Source: Cylindrospermopsis raciborskii Cr2010 (GTDB lineage Bacteria > Cyanobacteriota > Cyanobacteriia > Cyanobacteriales > Nostocaceae). From it: 32,000 nt of DNA. Every line of letters begins with the position of its first letter. Position 1 is the stretch's first letter. Below are positions 25,136-32,000 of this stretch, piece after piece. The stretch spans positions 510,001 through 542,000 of the forward strand of contig NZ_CP065936.1 of assembly GCF_003367075.2 (NCBI RefSeq). Reading direction: 5' to 3'. The notes below the pieces were generated by a model. The model was not told where the DNA came from. It saw only the letters and a list, made by a program, of their open reading frames with translations, and ran no database searches. The translations under genes and the position numbers were made by a program.

Positions 25136-26470
25136 ATGACTGTTGCTCGGACGATATGCTTGGGATTTATGGCGGTTATCTTATGTGGAACCATTCTGTT
25201 GATGATGCCTTTTTCCACTAGCAATGGCACATGGAACGACCCGATAGTAGCACTTTTTACCTCAACTTCCGCAGTCTGTGTGACCGGACTGTCAGTGGTT
25301 GATCCGGGTACCTATTTTTCCTTTTGGGGTCAACTACTGATTTTACTGCTAGTACAAATCGGTGGTTTGGGATATATGACAACTACCACCTTCCTGATTT
25401 TACTAATTGGCAAAAGATTTGATTTAAGGCAAAAGGTAGCTATTCAACAAGCTCTAGACCGTCCAGGTATGAGTGGTAGTAGCCAAATTATTCGCTCCAT
25501 TATTGCTACAACTATAATTTTTGAGATTACGGGAATTTTCCTCTTACTCCCCGCTTTTGTCCCTGACCATGGTTGGAGTCATGGAATGTGGTTAGCAATA
25601 TTTCACAGCATCAATTCCTTTAATAATGCGGGATTTAGTCTCTTTAAAGATAATTTGATAGGTTATCAAACATCCCTACTCGTGGTTTTTACAGTCACTG
25701 GGTTAATCATCTTTGGCGGAATTGGTTATCAAGTCATTTTGGATATGTATCTTTGGTTACGCGATCGCCTAAAAAGAAAAACGACATTTATGGTATTCTC
25801 CCTTGACTTTAAAGTAGCAGTTAGCACTACTTTAATATTATTAGTGGTAGGGACAGTAGCTTTCTTTCTCATAGAAATTAGAAATCCTGAAACCTTTGGC
25901 AAATTTGGATTTTCCGACCAACTATTATTAGCTTGGTTTCAGTCTGTTACTCCAAGAACAGCAGGTTTCAACACCATTGACATTGGTAAGATGAGTGATG
26001 CAGGTCTATTTATTACCATTGCTTTAATGTTCATTGGTGCTAGTCCAGGTGGTACGGGTGGTGGGATAAAAACAACAACCTTGAGGGTATTAACCAGCTG
26101 CACAAAAGCAATACTTCAGGGTAAAGAAGAAGTTTGGCTCTATGAGCGCAAAATAGCCATAACTCTTATTTTGAAAGCCATAGGTGTGGTTTTCGGCTCT
26201 TTGGCAACCGTCTTATCAGCAACAGTTTTAATTAGTTTAACTGACCCAAAACTAGAGTTCATTCAAATTCTTTTTGAGGTAGTCTCAGCTTTTGGTACAG
26301 TGGGACTATCCACAGGGATAACTGGTAGTATTTCTACTGCTGCTAAAATAGTTATAATTGTCACAATGTATATAGGAAGGGTCGGTGTTTTATTGTCAAT
26401 GTCAGCAATATTAGGAGATCCTCGTCCCAGTAGAGTTCACTACCCAGAAGGAAATTTGCTTGTAGGTTAG
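25136..26470 (+). CDS. ktrB: Potassium uptake protein, TrkH/KtrB family
   Basis: Multi-pass membrane protein with repeated selectivity-filter glycine motifs (TVTGLS-like CVTGLS, NNAGFS, RTAGFN, GTVGLSTG). ATG at 25136; a TTG at 25130 is an alternative. Confidence 0.8.
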   Translation: MTVARTICLGFMAVILCGTILLMMPFSTSNGTWNDPIVALFTSTSAVCVTGLSVVDPGTYFSFWGQLLILLLVQIGGLGYMTTTTFLILLIGKRFDLRQKVAIQQALDRPGMSGSSQIIRSIIATTIIFEITGIFLLLPAFVPDHGWSHGMWLAIFHSINSFNNAGFSLFKDNLIGYQTSLLVVFTVTGLIIFGGIGYQVILDMYLWLRDRLKRKTTFMVFSLDFKVAVSTTLILLVVGTVAFFLIEIRNPETFGKFGFSDQLLLAWFQSVTPRTAGFNTIDIGKMSDAGLFITIALMFIGASPGGTGGGIKTTTLRVLTSCTKAILQGKEEVWLYERKIAITLILKAIGVVFGSLATVLSATVLISLTDPKLEFIQILFEVVSAFGTVGLSTGITGSISTAAKIVIIVTMYIGRVGVLLSMSAILGDPRPSRVHYPEGNLLVG

Positions 26471-26473
26471 TTT

Positions 26474-27169
26474 ATGGACATTTCATCATTGAAGTTTTTT
26501 CGCAGTTTAAAACAAGACAATCACCAATTTGCAGTAATTGGATTAGGTCGTTTTGGTCGTTCTGTTTGCTCCACATTACATGGTTTGGGTTATCAGGTAT
26601 TAGCTACAGATGTGGATGAAAAAAGGGTATCTGAAGCATTAAATGAGTCAATTGTCGCTCATGCAGTGCAGTTAGACTCCACCGAATCAGCAGCACTTAA
26701 AGAAGCGGGCATTTTTGAGTTTGATACCGTTATTGTCGCTATTGGCAACTATGTTCAGGAAAGTATTATTACCACTCTTAATGTTAAGGAAGGTGGTGTA
26801 CCCCATGTGGTTGCTAAAGCTTCCAGTGAGGTACATTGTAAGCTCTTAAAAAGAGTAGGTGCAGACCATGTAGTATTTCCCGAATACGAAGCGGGTTGTG
26901 CTTTGGCGCGCACTCTAACTAAACCATCAATTTTAGACCGGTTTGATCTAGATCCAGATAATAGTATTGTAGAGTTGATTGTCCCCGATGAATTTCATGG
27001 TAAAACCGTGGCCGAAATCCAGCTGCGAAATCGTTATGGTCTAAATTTACTAGCAGTTAGTCAGGATGGTAAGTTTAAGATTAATCCTGACCCCAGTAAA
27101 CGACTGGAACGTGGTTCAGCGATGGTAGTAATTGGCTGTAATAAGGATATTAATCGCCTACCAATTTAA
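26474..27169 (+). CDS. ktrA: Potassium uptake regulatory subunit, TrkA-N/KtrA family
   Basis: Rossmann motif AVIGLGRFG plus a C-terminal TrkA-C domain. Starts 3 nt after ktrB. Confidence 0.8.
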   Translation: MDISSLKFFRSLKQDNHQFAVIGLGRFGRSVCSTLHGLGYQVLATDVDEKRVSEALNESIVAHAVQLDSTESAALKEAGIFEFDTVIVAIGNYVQESIITTLNVKEGGVPHVVAKASSEVHCKLLKRVGADHVVFPEYEAGCALARTLTKPSILDRFDLDPDNSIVELIVPDEFHGKTVAEIQLRNRYGLNLLAVSQDGKFKINPDPSKRLERGSAMVVIGCNKDINRLPI

Positions 27170-28281
27170 CTGCAACAAATTCTTGCTTCCGGTAAAATCA
27201 ACATAGCATCACCAAAAGAATAGAAACGATATCTAGATGCGATCGCCTGTTTATAAATACCTAATAATCTTTCTCGACCAATTAGGGAACTAACTAACAT
27301 AAGCAAACTAGAACGAGGTAGATGAAAGTTAGTAATAAGACCTTCCACGACACGCCACTGATAGCCTGGATAAATAAAAAGATTAACTTTGCCTGTATAT
27401 GGTTGTAAAGAACCAGTTTGGGCAGAACCTTCTAAAGCGCGAACTACCGTAGTACCAACCGCAATAATTCGCCCTCCAGCATTTTTGGTAGAGTAAATCT
27501 TCTCTACCAAATCCCCACTAACTTCTATCCATTCTTCATGCATTTGGTGGGTAGTAACATCTTCCACTTCCACTGGTCGAAATGTGCCGACACCAACATG
27601 TAAAGTGAGAAACTCCTGTTCAATACCGCGCTCCCGCAATTTGACCAATAGTTCTGGTGTAAAGTGAAGTCCTGCTGTGGGAGCTGCCACAGCACCGTCG
27701 TATTTAGCATATACAGTTTGATATTGCTCCTCCAGCGCATGAGAATTATTAATATAAGGTGGTAAAGGAACCTCCCCCAATTTGTGTAATAAATGGAGCA
27801 AAGAAACATTTATAGGCAAATCAAATTGCAACAATCTACCGCCCGTATTCTCATCCCGTTCAATCACCCTAGCAGTGAATTGGGGTATTAATTTATCCGC
27901 AGAGGATAATCCCTGATCATCAAAAATAATTTCAGTTCCGACGTTAAAATATTTACCTGGTTTAACCAATGCCAACCAACAATTATGTTGTTTTTCTTCC
28001 AAAAGTAACACTTCCACCCTTGCTCCTGTAGACTTGCGACCATATAGTCGAGCGGGGATAACTCGTGTATTATTCATCACTAATAAATCCCCAGGTTTTA
28101 ATAATTCTGGTAGATCTCTAAAAATGTGGTCTAGAGGAGGTGTGGAGGTTCCCGTATTGGGGGAATTAATCACCATTAAGCGAGAACTGTCTCTGGGAAC
28201 CACGGGGTTCTGGGCAATTAATTCTGGAGGTAGTTCATAGTCATATCCAGATAATGAGATATCTAGGTCACTATTTTGCAT
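27166..28281 (-). CDS. queA: S-adenosylmethionine:tRNA ribosyltransferase-isomerase
   Basis: YDYELPPELIAQNP...SRLMV, VAAPTAGLHFT and GTTVVRALE are canonical QueA motifs. Confidence 0.92.
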   Translation of the reverse strand: MQNSDLDISLSGYDYELPPELIAQNPVVPRDSSRLMVINSPNTGTSTPPLDHIFRDLPELLKPGDLLVMNNTRVIPARLYGRKSTGARVEVLLLEEKQHNCWLALVKPGKYFNVGTEIIFDDQGLSSADKLIPQFTARVIERDENTGGRLLQFDLPINVSLLHLLHKLGEVPLPPYINNSHALEEQYQTVYAKYDGAVAAPTAGLHFTPELLVKLRERGIEQEFLTLHVGVGTFRPVEVEDVTTHQMHEEWIEVSGDLVEKIYSTKNAGGRIIAVGTTVVRALEGSAQTGSLQPYTGKVNLFIYPGYQWRVVEGLITNFHLPRSSLLMLVSSLIGRERLLGIYKQAIASRYRFYSFGDAMLILPEARICCS

Positions 28282-28370
28282 TCTTATTCTTTGAATTAGG
28301 ATATTTAATGTCTAAATGCTTCATATTAGCATCAAGGTTTTTTAAGTGCTGTCAGAGATTAATCTGACAA

Positions 28371-28435
28371 CTCTGGGAGATGAAAGAGCTAATTGGCGTT
28401 CATAAAGCTATAATTGTACATCCTAGGGGAGGTGT
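28371..28435 (+). pseudogene. Diverged 65-bp scrap of an Rpn-like gene
   Basis: About 75 percent identical to 29521-29585 of the intact copy, but placed out of order in front of copy 1. Confidence 0.55.
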
Positions 28436-29194
28436 CAATATGAGGAAGAATTTCCCCAGAGAATGTACATCTATAATTATCGTGCTTTTAACCTAAATCA
28501 AAAACCGGTGATTAGTCTGGCAATTCTGGGAGATGAGAGAGCTGATTGGCAACCAGAAAGTTATAATCATAGCTTATGAGGGTGTGAAGTAACCCTGAAA
28601 TTCCCCATAGTAAAATTACTCAGCTATGAAGCCAAATGGTCAGAGCTAGAAGAAAGTAATAATCCTTTTGCTATCATAGTGATGGCACATTTAAAGACAA
28701 AAGCAACCACCCGGAACCTAGGGGAGAGAGAAAAATGGAAATGGAGTTTAATCAGGGGATTATATGATAAGGGGTTCGATAGAGAGCAAATAATTCGATT
28801 ATTTGGGATAATTGACATCATGATGGAGTTACCCAAAAAGTTACAGGAAAGTTTGGATAGTAAGATAAAGACATTTGAGGAGGATAGAAAGATGCCGTTA
28901 TTAACTAATATGGAGTTAAGAGGAATAGAAACTGGTAAGGAAATCGGTAAGGAAATCGGGAGGGAAATTGGCATATTAGAAAAAGCTCATGAAGATGTGA
29001 AGCTGGTGTTGAGAACAAGATTGGGTGACATACCAGTGAAAATTGAGCAAGCTGTGGATAAAATATCAGTATTGTCTATTTTAGATAAGCTGTTAAAAGT
29101 GGCAATCAAAGTTGATTGTTTTGAGGACTTTCATCAATCCTTAGTCAAATTGTCTCCTAAAGTTCCCGAATCAAATGAGTCAGATAAGAGCTAA
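28436..29194 (+). pseudogene. Rpn/YhgA-like nuclease paralogue, copy 1: lacks the first ~87 codons and has an in-frame TGA at 28577-28579
   Basis: Collinear with 29433-30215 of the intact copy. AAC ATA GGA is changed to AGC TTA TGA. The remaining open frame 28679..29194 (171 aa) starts at the conserved internal VMAHLKTK and covers only the C-terminal domain (variant A). Confidence 0.8.
28934..28969 (+). repeat. 12-bp coding tandem repeat, 3 units (GKEI GKEI GREI)
   Basis: GGTAAGGAAATC x2 plus GGGAGGGAAATT. Confidence 0.9.
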
Positions 29195-30215
29195 TTATGA
29201 CGAACCATGGAAAGAAGCATTAACCGAGTATTTTGAACAATTTTTGCTCTTCTTCTTTCCTTCAATTCACCAATTAATCAATTGGGAAAAAATCCCCGAG
29301 TCTCTGGATAAAGAATTACAAAGAGTCACAGCTTCTTCAAAAACGGAAAAACGCTATGCAGATAAACTATACAAGGTTTGGCTGGTTAGTGGAGAAGAAA
29401 TGTGGGTGTTAATTCATATTGAAATTCAAAGTCAATATGAGGAAGAATTTCCCCAGAGAATGTACATCTATAATTATCGTGCTTTTGACCTAAATCAAAA
29501 ACCGGTGATTAGTTTGGCAATTCTGGGAGATGAGAGAGCTGATTGGCAACCAGAAAGTTATAATCATAACATAGGAGGGTGTGAAGTAACCCTGAAATTC
29601 CCCATAGTAAAATTACTCAGCTATGAAGCCAAATGGTCAGAGCTAGAAGAAAGTAATAATCCTTTTGCTATCATAGTGATGGCACATTTAAAGACAAAAG
29701 CAACCACCCGGAACCTAGGGGAGAGAGAAAAATGGAAATGGAGTTTAATCAGGGGATTATATGATAAGGGGTTCGATAGAGAGCAAATAATTCGATTATT
29801 TGGGATAATTGACATTATGATGGAGTTACCCAAAAAGTTACAGGAAAGTTTGGATAGTAAGATAAAGACATTTGAGGAGGATAGAAAGATGCCGTTATTA
29901 ACTAATATGGAGTTAAGAGGAATAGAGACTGGTAAGGAAATTGGCAAGGAAATTGGTAAGGAAATTGGTAAGGAAATTGGTGAGGGAATTGGCATATTGA
30001 AAAATGCCCGTGATTATGTGAAGCTGGTGTTGAGAACAAGATTGGGTGACATACCAGTGAAAATTGAGCAAGCTGTGGATAAAATATCAGTATTGTCTAT
30101 TTTAGATGAGCTGTTAAAAGTGGCAATCAAAGTTGATTGTTTTGAGGACTTTCATCAATCCTTAGTCAAATTGTCTCCTAAAGTTCCCGAATCAAATGAG
30201 TCAGATAAGAGCTAA
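29175..30215 (+). CDS. Rpn-family (YhgA-like, PD-(D/E)XK, Transposase_31/DUF4351-type) recombination-promoting nuclease / putative transposase, 346 aa, the only intact copy
   Basis: N-terminal YDEPWKEAL and a core YADKLYKVWL...VLIHIEIQSQYEEEFPQRMYIY (D...E-x-Q nuclease motif layout of YhgA-like proteins). The C-terminal helical domain contains (GKEI)4. Confidence 0.8.
   Translation: MSQIRANYDEPWKEALTEYFEQFLLFFFPSIHQLINWEKIPESLDKELQRVTASSKTEKRYADKLYKVWLVSGEEMWVLIHIEIQSQYEEEFPQRMYIYNYRAFDLNQKPVISLAILGDERADWQPESYNHNIGGCEVTLKFPIVKLLSYEAKWSELEESNNPFAIIVMAHLKTKATTRNLGEREKWKWSLIRGLYDKGFDREQIIRLFGIIDIMMELPKKLQESLDSKIKTFEEDRKMPLLTNMELRGIETGKEIGKEIGKEIGKEIGEGIGILKNARDYVKLVLRTRLGDIPVKIEQAVDKISVLSILDELLKVAIKVDCFEDFHQSLVKLSPKVPESNESDKS
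29931..29990 (+). repeat. 12-bp coding tandem repeat, 5 units (GKEI x4, GEGI)
   Basis: GGYAAGGAAATT x4 plus GGTGAGGGAATT. Confidence 0.9.
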
Positions 30216-30805
30216 TTATGACGAACCATGGAAAGAAGCATTAACCGAGTATTTTGAACAATTCTTCTTCTTCTTTCCTTCAATTCACCAATTAAGTGGG
30301 TGAAAAGACAAAAGCAACCACCCGGAACCTAGGGGAGAGAGAAAAATGGAAATGGAGTTTAATCAGGGGATTATATGATAAGGGGTTCGATAGAGAGCAA
30401 ATAATTCGATTATTTGGGATAATTGACATCATGATGGAGTTACCCAAAAAGTTACAGGAAAGTTTGGATAGTAAGATAAAGACATTTGAGGAGGATAGAA
30501 AGATGCCGTTATTAACTAATATGGAGTTAAGAGGAATAGAAACTGGTAAGGAAATCGGTAAGGAAATCGGGAGGGAAATTGGCATATTAGAAAAAGCTCA
30601 TGAAGATGTGAAGCTGGTGTTGAGAACAAGATTGGGTGACATACCAGTGAAAATTGAGCAAGCTGTGGATAAAATATCAGTATTGTCTATTTTAGATGAG
30701 CTGTTAAAAGTGGCAATCAAAGTTGATTGTTTTGAGGACTTTCATCAATCCTTAGTCAAATTGTCTCCTAAAGTTCCCGAATCAAATGAGTCAGATAAGA
30801 GCTAA
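30196..30805 (+). pseudogene. Rpn-like copy 3: 5' stump (35 codons, 30196-30303) fused by an internal deletion to the C-terminal domain (ORF 30296..30805, 169 aa, variant A)
   Basis: The junction ...CACCAATTAAGTGGGTGA|AAAGACAAAAGC joins the first 8 nt of the 112-bp insert directly to codon KTKATT. Confidence 0.8.
30545..30580 (+). repeat. 12-bp coding tandem repeat, 3 units
   Basis: Same as copy 1. Confidence 0.9.
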
Positions 30806-30885
30806 TTATGACGAACCATGGAAAGAAGCATTAACCGAGTATTTTGAACAATTCTTCTTCTTCTTTCCTTCAATTCACCAATTAA

Positions 30886-30997
30886 GTGGGTGAGTGGAAT
30901 TAAATATAAGATCAACGTAGGTTGGGTTGAAGTATGAAACCCAACATCCCCATGGGTCTCGTTACTCGACCCACCCTACAAATAATTGTGCCTCCCT
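30886..30997 (+). mobile_element. 112-bp structured, MITE-like insert
   Basis: Inverted repeats GTGGGTGAGT / ACTCGACCCAC, a nested pair GTAGGTTGGGTT / GACCCACCCTAC, and a local hairpin GTTGGGTT-N9-AACCCAAC. No coding capacity. Confidence 0.5.
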
Positions 30998-31459
30998 TAT
31001 AATTATCGTGCTTTTGACCTAAATCAAAAACCGGTGATTAGTTTGGCAATTCTGGGAGATGAGAGAGCTGATTGGCAACCAGAAAGTTATAATCATAACA
31101 TAGGAGGGTGTGAAGTAACCCTGAAATTCCCCATAGTAAAATTACTCAGCTATGAAGCCAAATGGTCAGAGCTAGAAGAAAGTAATAATCCTTTTGCTAT
31201 CATAGTGATGGCACATTTAAAGACAAAAGCAACCACCCGGAACCTAGGGGAGAGAGAAAAATGGAAATGGAGTTTAATCAGGGGATTATATGATAAGGGG
31301 TTCGATAGAGAGCAAATAATTCGATTATTTGGGATAATTGACATTATGATGGAGTTACCCAAAAAGTTACAGGAAAGTTTGGATAGTAAGATAAAGACAT
31401 TTGAGGAGGATAGAAAGATGCCGTTATTAACTAATATGGAGTTAAGAGGAATAGAGACT

Positions 31460-31531
31460 GGTAAGGAAATTGGCAAGGAAATTGGTAAGGAAATTGGTAA
31501 GGAAATTGGTAAGGAAATTGGTGAGGGAATT
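31460..31531 (+). repeat. 12-bp coding tandem repeat, 6 units (GKEI x5, GEGI)
   Basis: One unit more than in the intact copy. Confidence 0.9.
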
Positions 31532-31736
31532 GGCATATTGAAAAATGCCCGTGATTATGTGAAGCTGGTGTTGAGAACAAGATTGGGTGACATACCAGTG
31601 AAAATTGAGCAAGCTGTGGATAAAATATCAGTATTGTCTATTTTAGATGAGCTGTTAAAAGTGGCAATCAAAGTTGATTGTTTTGAGGACTTTCATCAAT
31701 CCTTAGTCAAATTGTCTCCTAAAGTTCCCGAATCAA

Positions 31737-32000
31737 ATGAGTCAGATAAGAGCTAATTATGACGAACCATGGAAAGAAGCATTAACCGAGTATTTTGAAC
31801 AATTCTTCTTCTTCTTTCCTTCAATTCACCAATTAAGTGGGTGAGTGGAATTAAATATAAGATCAACGTAGGTTGGGTTGAAGTATGAAACCCAACATCC
31901 CCATGGGTCTCGTTACTCGACCCACCCTACAAATAATTGTGCCTCCCTTATAATTATCGTGCTTTTGACCTAAATCAAAAACCGGTGATTAGTTTGGCAA
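31737..32000 (+). pseudogene. Rpn-like copy 5 (same structure as copy 4), runs off the window
   Basis: 31737-32000 repeats 30786-31049 with a 951-bp period. Confidence 0.75.
31837..31948 (+). mobile_element. Second copy of the 112-bp structured insert
   Basis: Identical context and sequence, 951 bp downstream of the first. Confidence 0.5.

What the first reader, a model, noticed from the sequence alone, without database searches (positions are those of the whole stretch)
28371..32000. Head-to-tail array of Rpn/YhgA-like nuclease genes: one intact nuclease plus several near-identical C-terminal-domain-only paralogues
Seen in sequence:
- At least five consecutive copies of one gene family are present, with long stretches that look identical between copies.
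- Only copy 2 (29175-30215) retains the N-terminal PD-(D/E)XK-type core (ADKLYKV...VLIHIEIQSQ).
- Copies 1, 3, 4 and 5 have each lost that core by a different lesion: a 5' truncation plus an in-frame TGA, an internal deletion, or replacement by a 112-bp insert.
- All of these copies still keep a long open frame for the C-terminal domain (171, 169 and 256 aa). Two of those frames begin at or within 4 codons of the conserved internal Met of VMAHLKTK.
- Two C-terminal alleles alternate along the array. Variant A is GREIGILEKAHEDV; variant B is GEGIGILKNARDYV.

Established knowledge, as I recall it: E. coli Rpn proteins are toxic recombination-promoting nucleases. Small proteins made from internal in-frame starts, covering just the C-terminal domain, neutralise the full-length protein, and the pairs contribute to phage defence.

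Inference: here the C-terminal-only function may have been externalised into separate tandem genes. The result would be one toxin/nuclease plus a set of allelic antitoxin-like or decoy modules. The alternative is plain decay of a recently amplified selfish gene.
Basis: partly seen in the sequence, partly recalled or inferred. Interest (0 to 1): 0.7.

Follow-up and report, generated by a model that had tools for sequence, protein, structure and literature searches.

The report
Tandem array of Rpn-like nuclease genes
A cyanobacterial chromosome carries a seamless head-to-tail array with one intact Rpn-like nuclease ("toxin") gene and several nuclease-dead copies that all still encode the small C-terminal "antitoxin-type" module, each with a different number of a four-amino-acid repeat. 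This is an enlarged version of an arrangement already described for E. coli Rpn genes, not a new kind of system.

Summary
Window 28357-32000 holds one degenerate fragment and five head-to-tail units of one gene. Only unit 2 (29175-30215, 346 aa) is intact.

The family is a divergent cyanobacterial branch of the Rpn/YhgA-like nuclease + DUF4351 superfamily. It scores below the curated HMM cut-offs but is linked to them by profile comparison and by intermediate sequences.

Every unit keeps an invariant internal ATG (M239) behind a GAGGAGG Shine-Dalgarno whose Glu codons are held at synonymous sites. Fourteen residues later comes a 12-bp/4-aa GKEI repeat, present in 3, 5, 3 and 6 copies. These are the published signatures of the RpnL/RpnS gene-within-gene toxin-antitoxin.

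Related Cylindrospermopsis genomes carry the array at the same locus with fixed ends and 5 to about 16 units. A second array, diverged to dS 0.72 (dN/dS 0.13), has the same 20-nt-overlap junction, so the architecture is old.

The small-protein frame is open in 31 of 31 units of the four clean assemblies. With only five independent lesions, selection on the defective units is not demonstrated (P about 0.15).

Zhong et al. 2023 already describe separate RpnS genes, rpn arrays and repeat-number specificity. I rate this a new variant of a known kind, of moderate interest.

The parts
28357..28414 (+). Fragment 0: a degenerate piece of a unit (unit nt 333-390, about 81% identity) that forms the fixed left edge of the array
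   Evidence: The same fragment lies next to queA in L001
28434..29194 (+). Unit 1 (lead unit): 5'-truncated at unit nt 257, so the nuclease core is missing. In-frame TGA at 28577-28579. Allele A, 3 repeats
28892..29194 (+). RpnS-like frame of unit 1 (100 aa), running from the internal ATG behind GAGGAGG to the unit's stop
   Evidence: sequence
29175..30215 (+). Unit 2: the only intact full-length gene (346 aa). It has D63 and E83-x-Q85, the family-invariant PD-(D/E)XK-type motif. Allele B, 5 repeats. Its ATG overlaps unit 1's end by 20 nt
29868..29891 (+). Internal translation start signal: TTT GAG GAG GAT AGA AAG ATG (a GAGGAGG Shine-Dalgarno 8 nt before the M239 ATG at 29889)
   Evidence: GAG at 27 of 30 contexts versus 37 of 164 at other conserved Glu codons, P 2e-12
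29889..30215 (+). RpnS-like frame inside unit 2 (108 aa): a long helix carrying the GKEI repeats, followed by a helical bundle homologous to DUF4351
29930..29992 (+). 12-bp (GKEI) repeat, 5.2 copies. The same site has 2.9 copies at 28934-28968, 2.9 at 30545-30579 and 6.2 at 31459-31533
30196..30805 (+). Unit 3 (delta type): unit nt 1-103, the first 8 nt of the insert (30296-30303), then unit nt 516-1041. Nuclease core and middle region are deleted. Allele A, 3 repeats. RpnS-like frame 30503-30805 (100 aa)
30786..31756 (+). Unit 4 (insert type): unit nt 104-294, which include the D...ExQ core, are replaced by a 112-bp insert. Allele B, 6 repeats. RpnS-like frame 31418-31756 (112 aa)
30886..30997 (+). 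112-bp hairpin insert with terminal inverted repeats (MITE-like). A second copy lies at 31837-31948
31737..32000 (+). Unit 5 (insert type), cut by the end of the window. The array continues beyond 32000
   Evidence: L067 shows how a closely related array ends

Best explanation
This is a chromosomal array of Rpn-type 'gene-within-gene' toxin-antitoxin/defence genes from a divergent cyanobacterial branch of the Rpn (YhgA-like PD-(D/E)XK nuclease + DUF4351) superfamily.

What each intact unit encodes.
- A long protein (L, 346 aa here) with an N-terminal nuclease domain.
- A small protein (S, about 92-128 aa) translated from a conserved internal Shine-Dalgarno/ATG at M239. S consists of a long helix carrying a variable number of GKEI tetrapeptide repeats, followed by a DUF4351-type helical bundle.
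- By analogy with E. coli RpnL/RpnS, S would bind and silence L through this helix, and the repeat number would set which S pairs with which L.

How the array arose and changes.
- It arose from a tandem duplication whose junction lies just before the stop codon and just upstream of the start codon. That explains the 20-nt ORF overlap and the lack of a spacer.
- Since then it has expanded, contracted and been shuffled by unequal crossing-over and gene conversion between units, and by slippage of the 12-bp repeat.

The defective units.
- Units that lost the nuclease core are nuclease-dead derivatives. The losses are a hairpin-element insertion/deletion, a further deletion, a stop codon and a 5' truncation.
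- These units are harmless, still carry the S module, and exchange S alleles and repeat numbers with the intact unit(s).

What is shown and what is inferred.
- Shown: the anatomy, the homology, the conserved internal start signal, the repeat variation, recombination between units, the age of the architecture, and purifying selection on the family.
- Inferred: toxicity of L, translation of S and its antitoxin role, and any benefit from the S modules of defective units.
For: Anatomy.

Family.
- 1161 close homologues of about 320 aa in cyanobacteria, with D63, E83, Q85, M239 and P240 invariant.
- 8760 cluster representatives at E<=1e-3.
- The sub-threshold hits to PF04754 (residues 58-106) and TIGR01784 (residues 162-265) are collinear with the models, and PF04754 is seen in 15 of 30 members.
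- hhalign against the E. coli RpnA family aligns ADKLY...HIEIQS with SDVLW...IEHQS at E 0.03.
- Relative P0321 passes PF04754 at 25.2 >= 21.
- hhalign against a Microcystis paralogue carrying DUF4351 (73-78 bits) gives probability 98.6% and E 1e-15 over 288 columns. Repeat aligns to repeat and M239 aligns to its Met.
- A Nostoc plasmid homologue (42% identity, 1e-100) is named Rpn family in RefSeq.

Internal start.
- GAGGAGG lies 8 nt before the invariant ATG in every unit.
- The codons at E234/E235 are GAG in 27 of 30 contexts, against 37 of 164 at other conserved Glu positions. Fisher P is 2e-12.
- RpnA's internal start has the same layout: RBS at K240/E241 and M244 (PMC10327210).

Repeats.
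- GKEI (one hydrophobic residue plus charged residues or Gly) begins 14 aa after M239.
- The number ranges from 1 to 10 among units.
- This matches the published description: repeats start 8-20 aa after the S Met, and their number sets specificity.

Arrays.
- Same locus and same ends with 5 to about 16 units in L067, L001 and L064.
- A second array in strain G7 (L065) has six intact genes of 330-362 aa and the same junction.
- dS is 0.72 and dN/dS 0.13 between the two array types.

S frame open in 4/4 (window), 4/4 (L067), 14/14 (L064) and 9/9 (L065) units.

Recombination between units: all four combinations of core state and allele occur.

Parallel in Microcystis.
- Tandem full-length genes are followed by C-terminal-only ORFs and by core-deleted derivatives.
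- 19 of 22 N-less S modules are intact.
- pN/pS is about 0.2 among stand-alone modules.

Published precedent for separate rpnS genes and rpn arrays.
Against: - The window protein fails the curated cut-offs of PF04754 and TIGR01784.
- The direct profile comparison with E. coli RpnA is weak (E 0.03).
- There are no expression data of any kind.
- The neighbourhood (ktrAB, queA, a fatty-acid hydroxylase, an NRPS) is not a defence island. PADLOC has no Rpn model, so that search is uninformative.
- The absence of lesions in S regions is not statistically significant: five independent lesions, P about 0.15. The units are so similar that open frames are expected anyway. The middle region of insert-type units is also still open (256-272-aa frames).
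- In L001 many S frames are broken. That assembly has indels and substitutions at about 1:1, with about 45% of short indels in homopolymers, which points to long-read errors. Real decay is not excluded.
- 3 of 22 N-less S modules in other genera are truncated.
- The repeat numbers of the window's defective units (3, 3, 6) do not match the intact unit (5).
Confidence: 0.62

Rival explanations
1. Plain decay. The array is a neutral or selfish tandem amplification. The defective units are pseudogenes with no role. Their C-terminal frames are open only because the lesions are few and young and the units are constantly homogenised by gene conversion from the intact copies.
For: - Units differ by only 0-10 point substitutions outside the lesions.
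- The 'useless' middle region of insert-type units is also still open.
- Lesion placement is compatible with uniform chance (P 0.10-0.15).
- The same lesions (insert, TGA) have simply been copied to many units.
- Copy number differs even between genomes whose flanks are 99.97% identical.
- L001 shows broken S frames.
- 3 of 22 N-less modules in other genera are truncated.
Against: - The S frame is open in 31 of 31 units of four clean assemblies.
- The array architecture has persisted through dS 0.72 under dN/dS 0.13.
- The nuclease core has been lost independently, with the C-terminal module retained, in Microcystis and in Cylindrospermopsis.
- Stand-alone modules in Microcystis show pN/pS of about 0.2.
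- E. coli makes protein from a stand-alone downstream rpnS gene.
- The broken frames in L001 look like sequencing errors.
Confidence: 0.3
2. Cassette reservoir. The nuclease-dead units act mainly as silent donor cassettes. Recombination moves their repeat number and C-terminal allele into the intact gene, switching the specificity of the L/S pair, as pilS-type silent copies do for surface antigens.
For: - Four-gamete evidence shows that core state, TGA lesion, allele A/B and repeat number recombine freely between intact and defective units.
- One genome holds a ladder of 1-10 repeats.
- In L064, each intact allele-B repeat number (9, 3, 10, 7) also occurs in a defective unit.
- Allele A resembles the other array type (LEKAH).
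Against: - Recombination among near-identical tandem repeats is expected with no selected function.
- The match of repeat numbers in L064 is not significant (P about 0.17) and is absent in the window and in L067.
- L064 and L065 hold five or six intact genes, so silent donors are not needed for diversity.
Confidence: 0.12
3. Insertion-sequence-like mobile element. The genes are 'putative transposases' that inserted repeatedly at one site.
For: - The family is multi-copy and breaks short-read assemblies in Microcystis.
- It is present on 64 cyanobacterial plasmids.
- Some database names say transposase.
Against: - No inverted repeats were found in 26000-32000 at a minimum length of 40 nt.
- Units join head-to-tail with a 20-nt ORF overlap and no ends or target duplications.
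- The array ends are fixed across strains.
- Zhong et al. found no evidence that rpn genes transpose.
Confidence: 0.03
4. Assembly artefact of a repeated gene.
For: - Unit number and order differ between assemblies.
- Short-read drafts break at the array.
Against: - Four independent assemblies place an array at the same locus with identical left and right ends.
- Units differ by distinct lesions and repeat numbers, so they are not collapsed duplicates of one copy.
Confidence: 0.03

Closest known systems
E. coli RpnL/RpnS gene-within-gene toxin-antitoxin systems (RpnA-E, plasmid RpnP2; Zhong et al. 2023, PMC10327210)
   Same: - N-terminal PD-(D/E)XK-type motif D...E-x-Q, aligned with RpnA.
- Internal RBS and ATG in front of the C-terminal domain.
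- Hypervariable 4-aa repeat (one hydrophobic residue plus charged residues or Gly; KGIE in RpnC, GKEI here) starting 8-20 aa after the S Met.
- Protein lengths that differ in steps of 4 aa.
   Different: - Only remote sequence similarity, below the PF04754 and TIGR01784 cut-offs.
- S is about 100-128 aa, against 49 aa for RpnA-S.
- The genes sit in seamless arrays of 5-16 units, not as single genes.
- Toxicity, the antitoxin role and phage defence are untested here.
Stand-alone downstream rpnS genes (ypaA after rpnE; a second rpnC-S) and DUF4351-only genes (PMC10327210, section 6)
   Same: C-terminal-only copies lie directly downstream of a full-length gene. They arise by local duplication. 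E. coli makes protein from one of them.
   Different: - Here the C-terminal-only state arises by destruction of the nuclease core inside full units (insert/deletion, stop, truncation), not by duplication of the 3' part alone.
- Microcystis relatives do show the 3'-part-only type.
- Several such units occur per locus, with different repeat numbers and two alleles.
rpn gene arrays made by tandem direct duplication (PMC10327210, section 4 and its SI Fig. S1B, which was not readable here)
   Same: Multiple rpn genes at one locus, no target-site duplications, generated by tandem duplication.
   Different: - Zero-spacer units with a 20-nt ORF overlap.
- A ladder of 1-10 repeats within one genome.
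- The same junction conserved in two arrays at dS 0.72.
- Strain-to-strain variation in copy number.
- I could not see the SI figure, so I cannot tell how similar the published arrays are.
Canonical cyanobacterial YhgA-like + DUF4351 proteins (for example Microcystis L016 8825-9829)
   Same: Homologous over 288 columns (hhalign probability 98.6%), with the same domain order, a 4-aa repeat (GIEQ/GIER, 9-11 copies) at the same place, and an aligned internal Met.
   Different: Only about 25% identity. The window family's C-terminal domain is not recognised by PF14261 at threshold.

Membership tests
Rpn / YhgA-like family (PF04754, TIGR01784, COG5464) | Scores above the curated cut-off of the family HMMs | tested here: not met
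   - PF04754: 15.1 bits against a cut-off of 21.
- TIGR01784: 20.7 bits against 52.1.
- 15 of 30 family members hit PF04754 only at E<1.
- I therefore file it as Rpn-like at superfamily level, not as a member of the curated sets.
Rpn / YhgA-like family | N-terminal domain homologous to the YhgA-like PD-(D/E)XK nuclease domain, with the D...E-x-Q motif | tested here: met
   - D63, E83 and Q85 are invariant in 30 sequences.
- hhalign aligns them with the RpnA family's D63/E82/Q84 at E 0.03.
- Relative P0321 (E 7e-79 to the family profile) passes PF04754 at 25.2 bits.
- hhalign to a Microcystis paralogue with borderline PF04754 (18.8-22.3 bits) gives probability 98.6%.
- The fold search gave only weak PD-(D/E)XK hits at E >= 0.1.
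- The link is therefore transitive, not direct.
Rpn / YhgA-like family | C-terminal domain of the RpnS/DUF4351 type | tested here: met
   - The hhalign alignment (probability 98.6%, E 1e-15) runs through the DUF4351 region of a protein that scores 73-78 bits on PF14261.
- Direct PF14261 hits are sub-threshold: 4 of 21 S sequences, best E 0.017. P0321 scores 18.5 bits.
Rpn / YhgA-like family | Internal in-frame translation start with its own ribosome-binding site, giving a separate small protein | tested here: inconclusive
   - The sequence signature is present and strong.
- M239-P240 are invariant.
- GAGGAGG lies 8 nt upstream in every unit.
- Synonymous constraint on the two Glu codons gives P 2e-12.
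- Actual translation was not testable with these tools.
Rpn / YhgA-like family | Hypervariable four-amino-acid repeats (one hydrophobic residue plus charged residues or Gly) starting 8-20 residues after the S start | tested here: met
   - GKEI repeats start 14 residues after M239.
- There are 3, 5, 3 and 6 copies in the window and 1-10 in related arrays.
- The repeat number also varies among homologues.
Rpn / YhgA-like family | S protein folds as a helical bundle with a long first helix, like the RpnA-S crystal structure | tested here: inconclusive
   - The AlphaFold model (pLDDT 73.6) has a long helix at residues 6-52 and three short helices.
- Foldseek against the PDB found nothing significant and did not retrieve RpnA-S.
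Rpn / YhgA-like family | L is a toxic DNA endonuclease, and S binds and neutralises it in a manner that depends on repeat number | not testable with these tools
   This needs expression and biochemistry. It is known for E. coli RpnA, RpnB and RpnC (PMC10327210).
Rpn / YhgA-like family | Anti-phage defence role or defence-island context | tested here: inconclusive
   - The neighbours are ktrB/ktrA, queA, a fatty-acid hydroxylase and an NRPS.
- PADLOC holds no Rpn model; even RpnA gives no hit.
- There are no homologues in phage records and 64 in cyanobacterial plasmids.
Insertion sequence / transposase | Defined ends (terminal inverted repeats) and target-site duplications flanking each copy | tested here: not met
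   - No inverted repeats were found around the units at a minimum length of 40 nt.
- Units abut with a 20-nt ORF overlap.
- The array ends are fixed across strains.

The most novel reading that the evidence does not exclude
The array is a selected diversification device. Seamless tandem units, fast slippage of the 12-bp repeat and recombination between units would keep a standing library of S/L specificity variants (1-10 repeats, two or more C-terminal alleles) in one genome. Nuclease-dead units would serve both as expressed orphan antitoxins and as silent donor cassettes that re-programme the few intact nuclease genes. That would be a cassette-type variation system for a toxin-antitoxin/defence module, and one that recurs in bloom-forming cyanobacteria (Cylindrospermopsis, Microcystis).
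Probability: 0.18. Interest if true: 0.75.

Novelty: new variant of a known kind. Interest (0 to 1): 0.5.

Why it matters
If the reading is right, Rpn-type 'antitoxin inside the toxin gene' systems are not limited to single genes in enterobacteria. They would also form large, fast-changing arrays in bloom-forming cyanobacteria, in a family of thousands of proteins that current HMM libraries mostly leave as 'hypothetical'.

The arrays offer a natural experiment on the published rule that repeat number sets which S neutralises which L. One genome contains L and S forms with 1-10 repeats side by side, plus S-only units.

They also explain a recurrent cause of assembly breaks and strain-to-strain differences in Cylindrospermopsis and Microcystis genomes.

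The core ideas (separate S genes, arrays by tandem duplication, repeat variation) are already in the literature. The advance is one of scale, architecture and host range, not of principle.

Tried and rejected
- Direct Pfam and NCBIfam assignment: sub-threshold only.
- Profile search of PDB sequences with the full family and with the S region: only chance hits, and RpnA-S was not found.
- Foldseek against the PDB with both models: nothing significant.
- PADLOC: no Rpn models, so uninformative.
- Rfam on 28200-32000: no RNA family, including in the 112-bp insert.
- Promoter/terminator scan: the counts are inflated by the repeated units and tell nothing.
- Genome-contig scan: returned no Cylindrospermopsis locus, only Microcystis and other genera. 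The related arrays came from exact-protein look-ups instead.
- Exact look-up of the 169-aa ORF, and cluster look-up of three window ORFs: not on record.
- L001 as a test of 'C-terminal frames broken in orthologous arrays': rejected as evidence, because its indel pattern looks like long-read error.
- Idea that each intact unit is paired with a defective unit of the same repeat number: true in L064 but not significant (P about 0.17), and not true in the window or L067.
- Test of differential decay (lesions avoiding the S region): the direction is right but the test is under-powered.
- Transposon and assembly-artefact readings: rejected (see rival explanations).

Full report

Yes. A mechanical ORF list, repeat finding, the raw sequence and blastn of a reference unit (29175-30195) against the window all show a head-to-tail array running from 28357 to the window end. 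Its parts are:
- Unit 1 at 28434-29194. It is 5'-truncated at unit nt 257 and has an in-frame TGA at 28577-28579.
- Unit 2 at 29175-30215, intact, 346 aa.
- Unit 3 at 30196-30805, which keeps only unit nt 1-103 and 516-1041.
- Unit 4 at 30786-31756, where unit nt 104-294 are replaced by a 112-bp insert at 30886-30997.
- Unit 5 from 31737, of the same insert type, cut at 32000.

Three refinements follow.
- The ORF (1041 nt) is longer than the repeat unit (1021 nt). Each start codon lies 20 nt inside the previous unit's coding end, in another frame, so there is no spacer at all.
- Unit 3 shares the 3-bp deletion and the first 8 nt of the insert with units 4 and 5. It is therefore a secondary deletion of the insert type.
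- The units differ in the copy number of a 12-bp repeat: 2.9, 5.2, 2.9 and 6.2 copies.

**2. What family is it?**

The 346-aa protein has 1161 close homologues of about 320 aa in Microcystis, Dolichospermum, Anabaena, Cylindrospermopsis and other cyanobacteria. Most are annotated as 'hypothetical'. A profile search finds 8760 cluster representatives.

The curated models are missed:
- PF04754 scores 15.1 against a cut-off of 21.
- TIGR01784 scores 20.7 against 52.1.
- Comparison with an E. coli RpnA family profile is weak (E 0.03), but it aligns the right motif. ADKLY...HIEIQS pairs with SDVLW...IEHQS, and D63, E83 and Q85 are invariant in the family.

Stronger links are transitive:
- Relative P0321 passes PF04754.
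- The family profile aligns with probability 98.6% (E 1e-15, 288 columns) to a Microcystis paralogue that carries DUF4351 at 73-78 bits and has 9-11 GIEQ/GIER repeats. Repeat region aligns to repeat region, and M239 aligns to that protein's Met.
- A Nostoc plasmid homologue (42% identity) is named 'Rpn family' in RefSeq.

Fold searches were not decisive. I therefore call it Rpn-like at superfamily level. It is not a member of the curated sets.

**3. The gene-within-gene signature**

Zhong et al. 2023 (PMC10327210) established the following for Rpn genes:
- A small RpnS protein is made from an internal RBS and ATG.
- RpnS blocks the toxic RpnL nuclease.
- A hypervariable 4-aa repeat starts 8-20 residues after the S start.
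- Only an S with the same repeat number blocks a given L.
- S can also be encoded by a separate downstream gene annotated as DUF4351.
- rpn arrays arise by tandem direct duplication.

Here every unit contains TTT GAG GAG GAT AGA AAG ATG CCG. M239 and P240 are invariant across genera. The two Glu codons in front are GAG in 27 of 30 distinct contexts, against 37 of 164 at eight other conserved Glu positions. Fisher P is 2e-12. That is a synonymous-site constraint, as expected for a Shine-Dalgarno sequence.

The GKEI repeats begin 14 residues after M239. The AlphaFold model of the 108-aa product is a long helix followed by a small helical bundle.

The probable small proteins are therefore 100, 108, 100 and 112 aa. 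They start at 28892, 29889, 30503 and 31418.

**4. Related arrays**

Exact-protein look-ups found the same queA-flanked locus in three other assemblies.
- L067 (CP091284.1) is 99.97% identical to the window up to 30303, but it lacks unit 3 and has five units.
- L064 has 15-16 units, including five intact genes of 338-366 aa.
- L001 has about 12 units.
- The left end (fragment 0 plus unit nt 257) and the right end (unit nt 682) are the same wherever both are seen. The array is therefore a fixed locus with a variable interior.
- Strain G7 has a second array at another locus (L065), with six intact genes of 330-362 aa and the same 20-nt-overlap junction. That second locus recurs in another strain.

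Between the two array types dS is 0.72 and dN/dS is 0.13 (N-terminal part 0.09, middle 0.18, S 0.16). The seamless architecture is therefore old, and the genes are under purifying selection.

Lengths differ only in steps of 4 aa, and repeat number ranges from 1 to 10 within one genome. Core state, the TGA lesion, allele A/B and repeat number occur in all combinations. This shows recombination between units.

**5. Function or decay of the defective units?**

The S frame is open in 31 of 31 units of the four clean assemblies. All five independent internal frame-breaking lesions lie upstream of it.

With so few events this is not significant (P about 0.15). The units are nearly identical, and the middle region is also still open in insert-type units.

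L001 shows many broken S frames. However, its indel-to-substitution ratio is about 1:1 and its indels are enriched in homopolymers, which points to long-read errors.

Outside the genus, Microcystis shows the same theme independently:
- Tandem full-length genes are followed by C-terminal-only ORFs that start at a constant junction.
- Core-deleted derivatives carry a heptanucleotide-repeat filler in place of the core.
- 19 of 22 N-less S modules are intact.
- pN/pS is about 0.2 among stand-alone modules.

This favours a retained S function in the family. It does not prove that function for the window's units. By the published repeat-number rule, the window's defective units (3, 3 and 6 repeats) would not be cognate antitoxins of the intact gene (5 repeats).

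**6. Verdict**

- The best explanation is an Rpn-type L/S array built and reshuffled by tandem duplication, unequal crossing-over and repeat slippage. Nuclease-dead units still carry the S module (confidence about 0.6).
- The main rival is neutral decay of the defective units (about 0.3).
- What is new is the scale and seamlessness of the arrays, the repeat-number ladder within one genome, the age of the architecture, and its recurrence in an unannotated cyanobacterial family.
- I rate it a new variant of a known kind, interest 0.5.

Noticed in passing
window 30886-30997 and 31837-31948; L051 5224-5252 (-): The 112-bp insert that replaces the nuclease core folds as a hairpin with terminal inverted repeats (z -3.4). 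Its roughly 55-nt core (AACGTAGGTTGGGTTGAAGTATGAAACCCAAC...) also occurs in a Microcystis novacekii contig. This suggests a dispersed, MITE-like cyanobacterial hairpin repeat. It has no Rfam match.
   Followed up: partly
L006 10997-11770, L007 8228-8990, L036 10001-11531 (Microcystis): Microcystis has recurrent core-deleted derivatives (residues 1-68 joined to 157-end). The nuclease core is replaced by a filler that reads SVISYQLSVISYQ, a short tandem repeat. This is an independent parallel to the insert lesion in the window.
   Followed up: partly
L016 8825-9829; also L005, L009-L012, L020, L036 and L044, about 140 bp upstream of the family gene: Many Microcystis loci carry a 25%-identity paralogue directly upstream. 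It has borderline PF04754, strong DUF4351 and 9-11 GIEQ/GIER repeats. Diverged Rpn-like genes therefore cluster as conserved pairs.
   Followed up: partly
L064 15367-17404 and L001 17424-19461, versus L067 12291-12582: About 2 kb lies between the array end and the fatty-acid hydroxylase gene in two strains and is absent in a third. In L064 its minus-strand ORFs look like IS-type transposase remnants. That reading rests on my own inspection of the translations; no family search was run.
   Followed up: no
L065 17155-18450; L070 1042-2337: A 431-aa ORF with no Pfam hit starts right where the second array ends, and it is conserved in another strain. Its relation to the array is unknown.
   Followed up: no
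L001 12883-15992: These units have about as many 1-2-bp indels as substitutions, and about 45% of the indels lie in homopolymers. This probably reflects uncorrected long-read errors inside the repeat array, so the assembly should not be used to judge frame integrity.
   Followed up: yes
L067 12583-19999 (downstream of the array; beyond the window end): In related strains a fatty-acid hydroxylase gene and a 2112-aa two-module NRPS follow the array directly. The hypervariable array therefore borders a secondary-metabolite gene cluster.
   Followed up: no
window 29175-30215 versus plasmid and phage collections: Homologues occur on 64 cyanobacterial plasmids, 27 of them predicted conjugative, and in no phage record. 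One plasmid (Dolichospermum pUHCC0315c) has two adjacent copies next to a Tn3 transposase and an integrase.
   Followed up: partly
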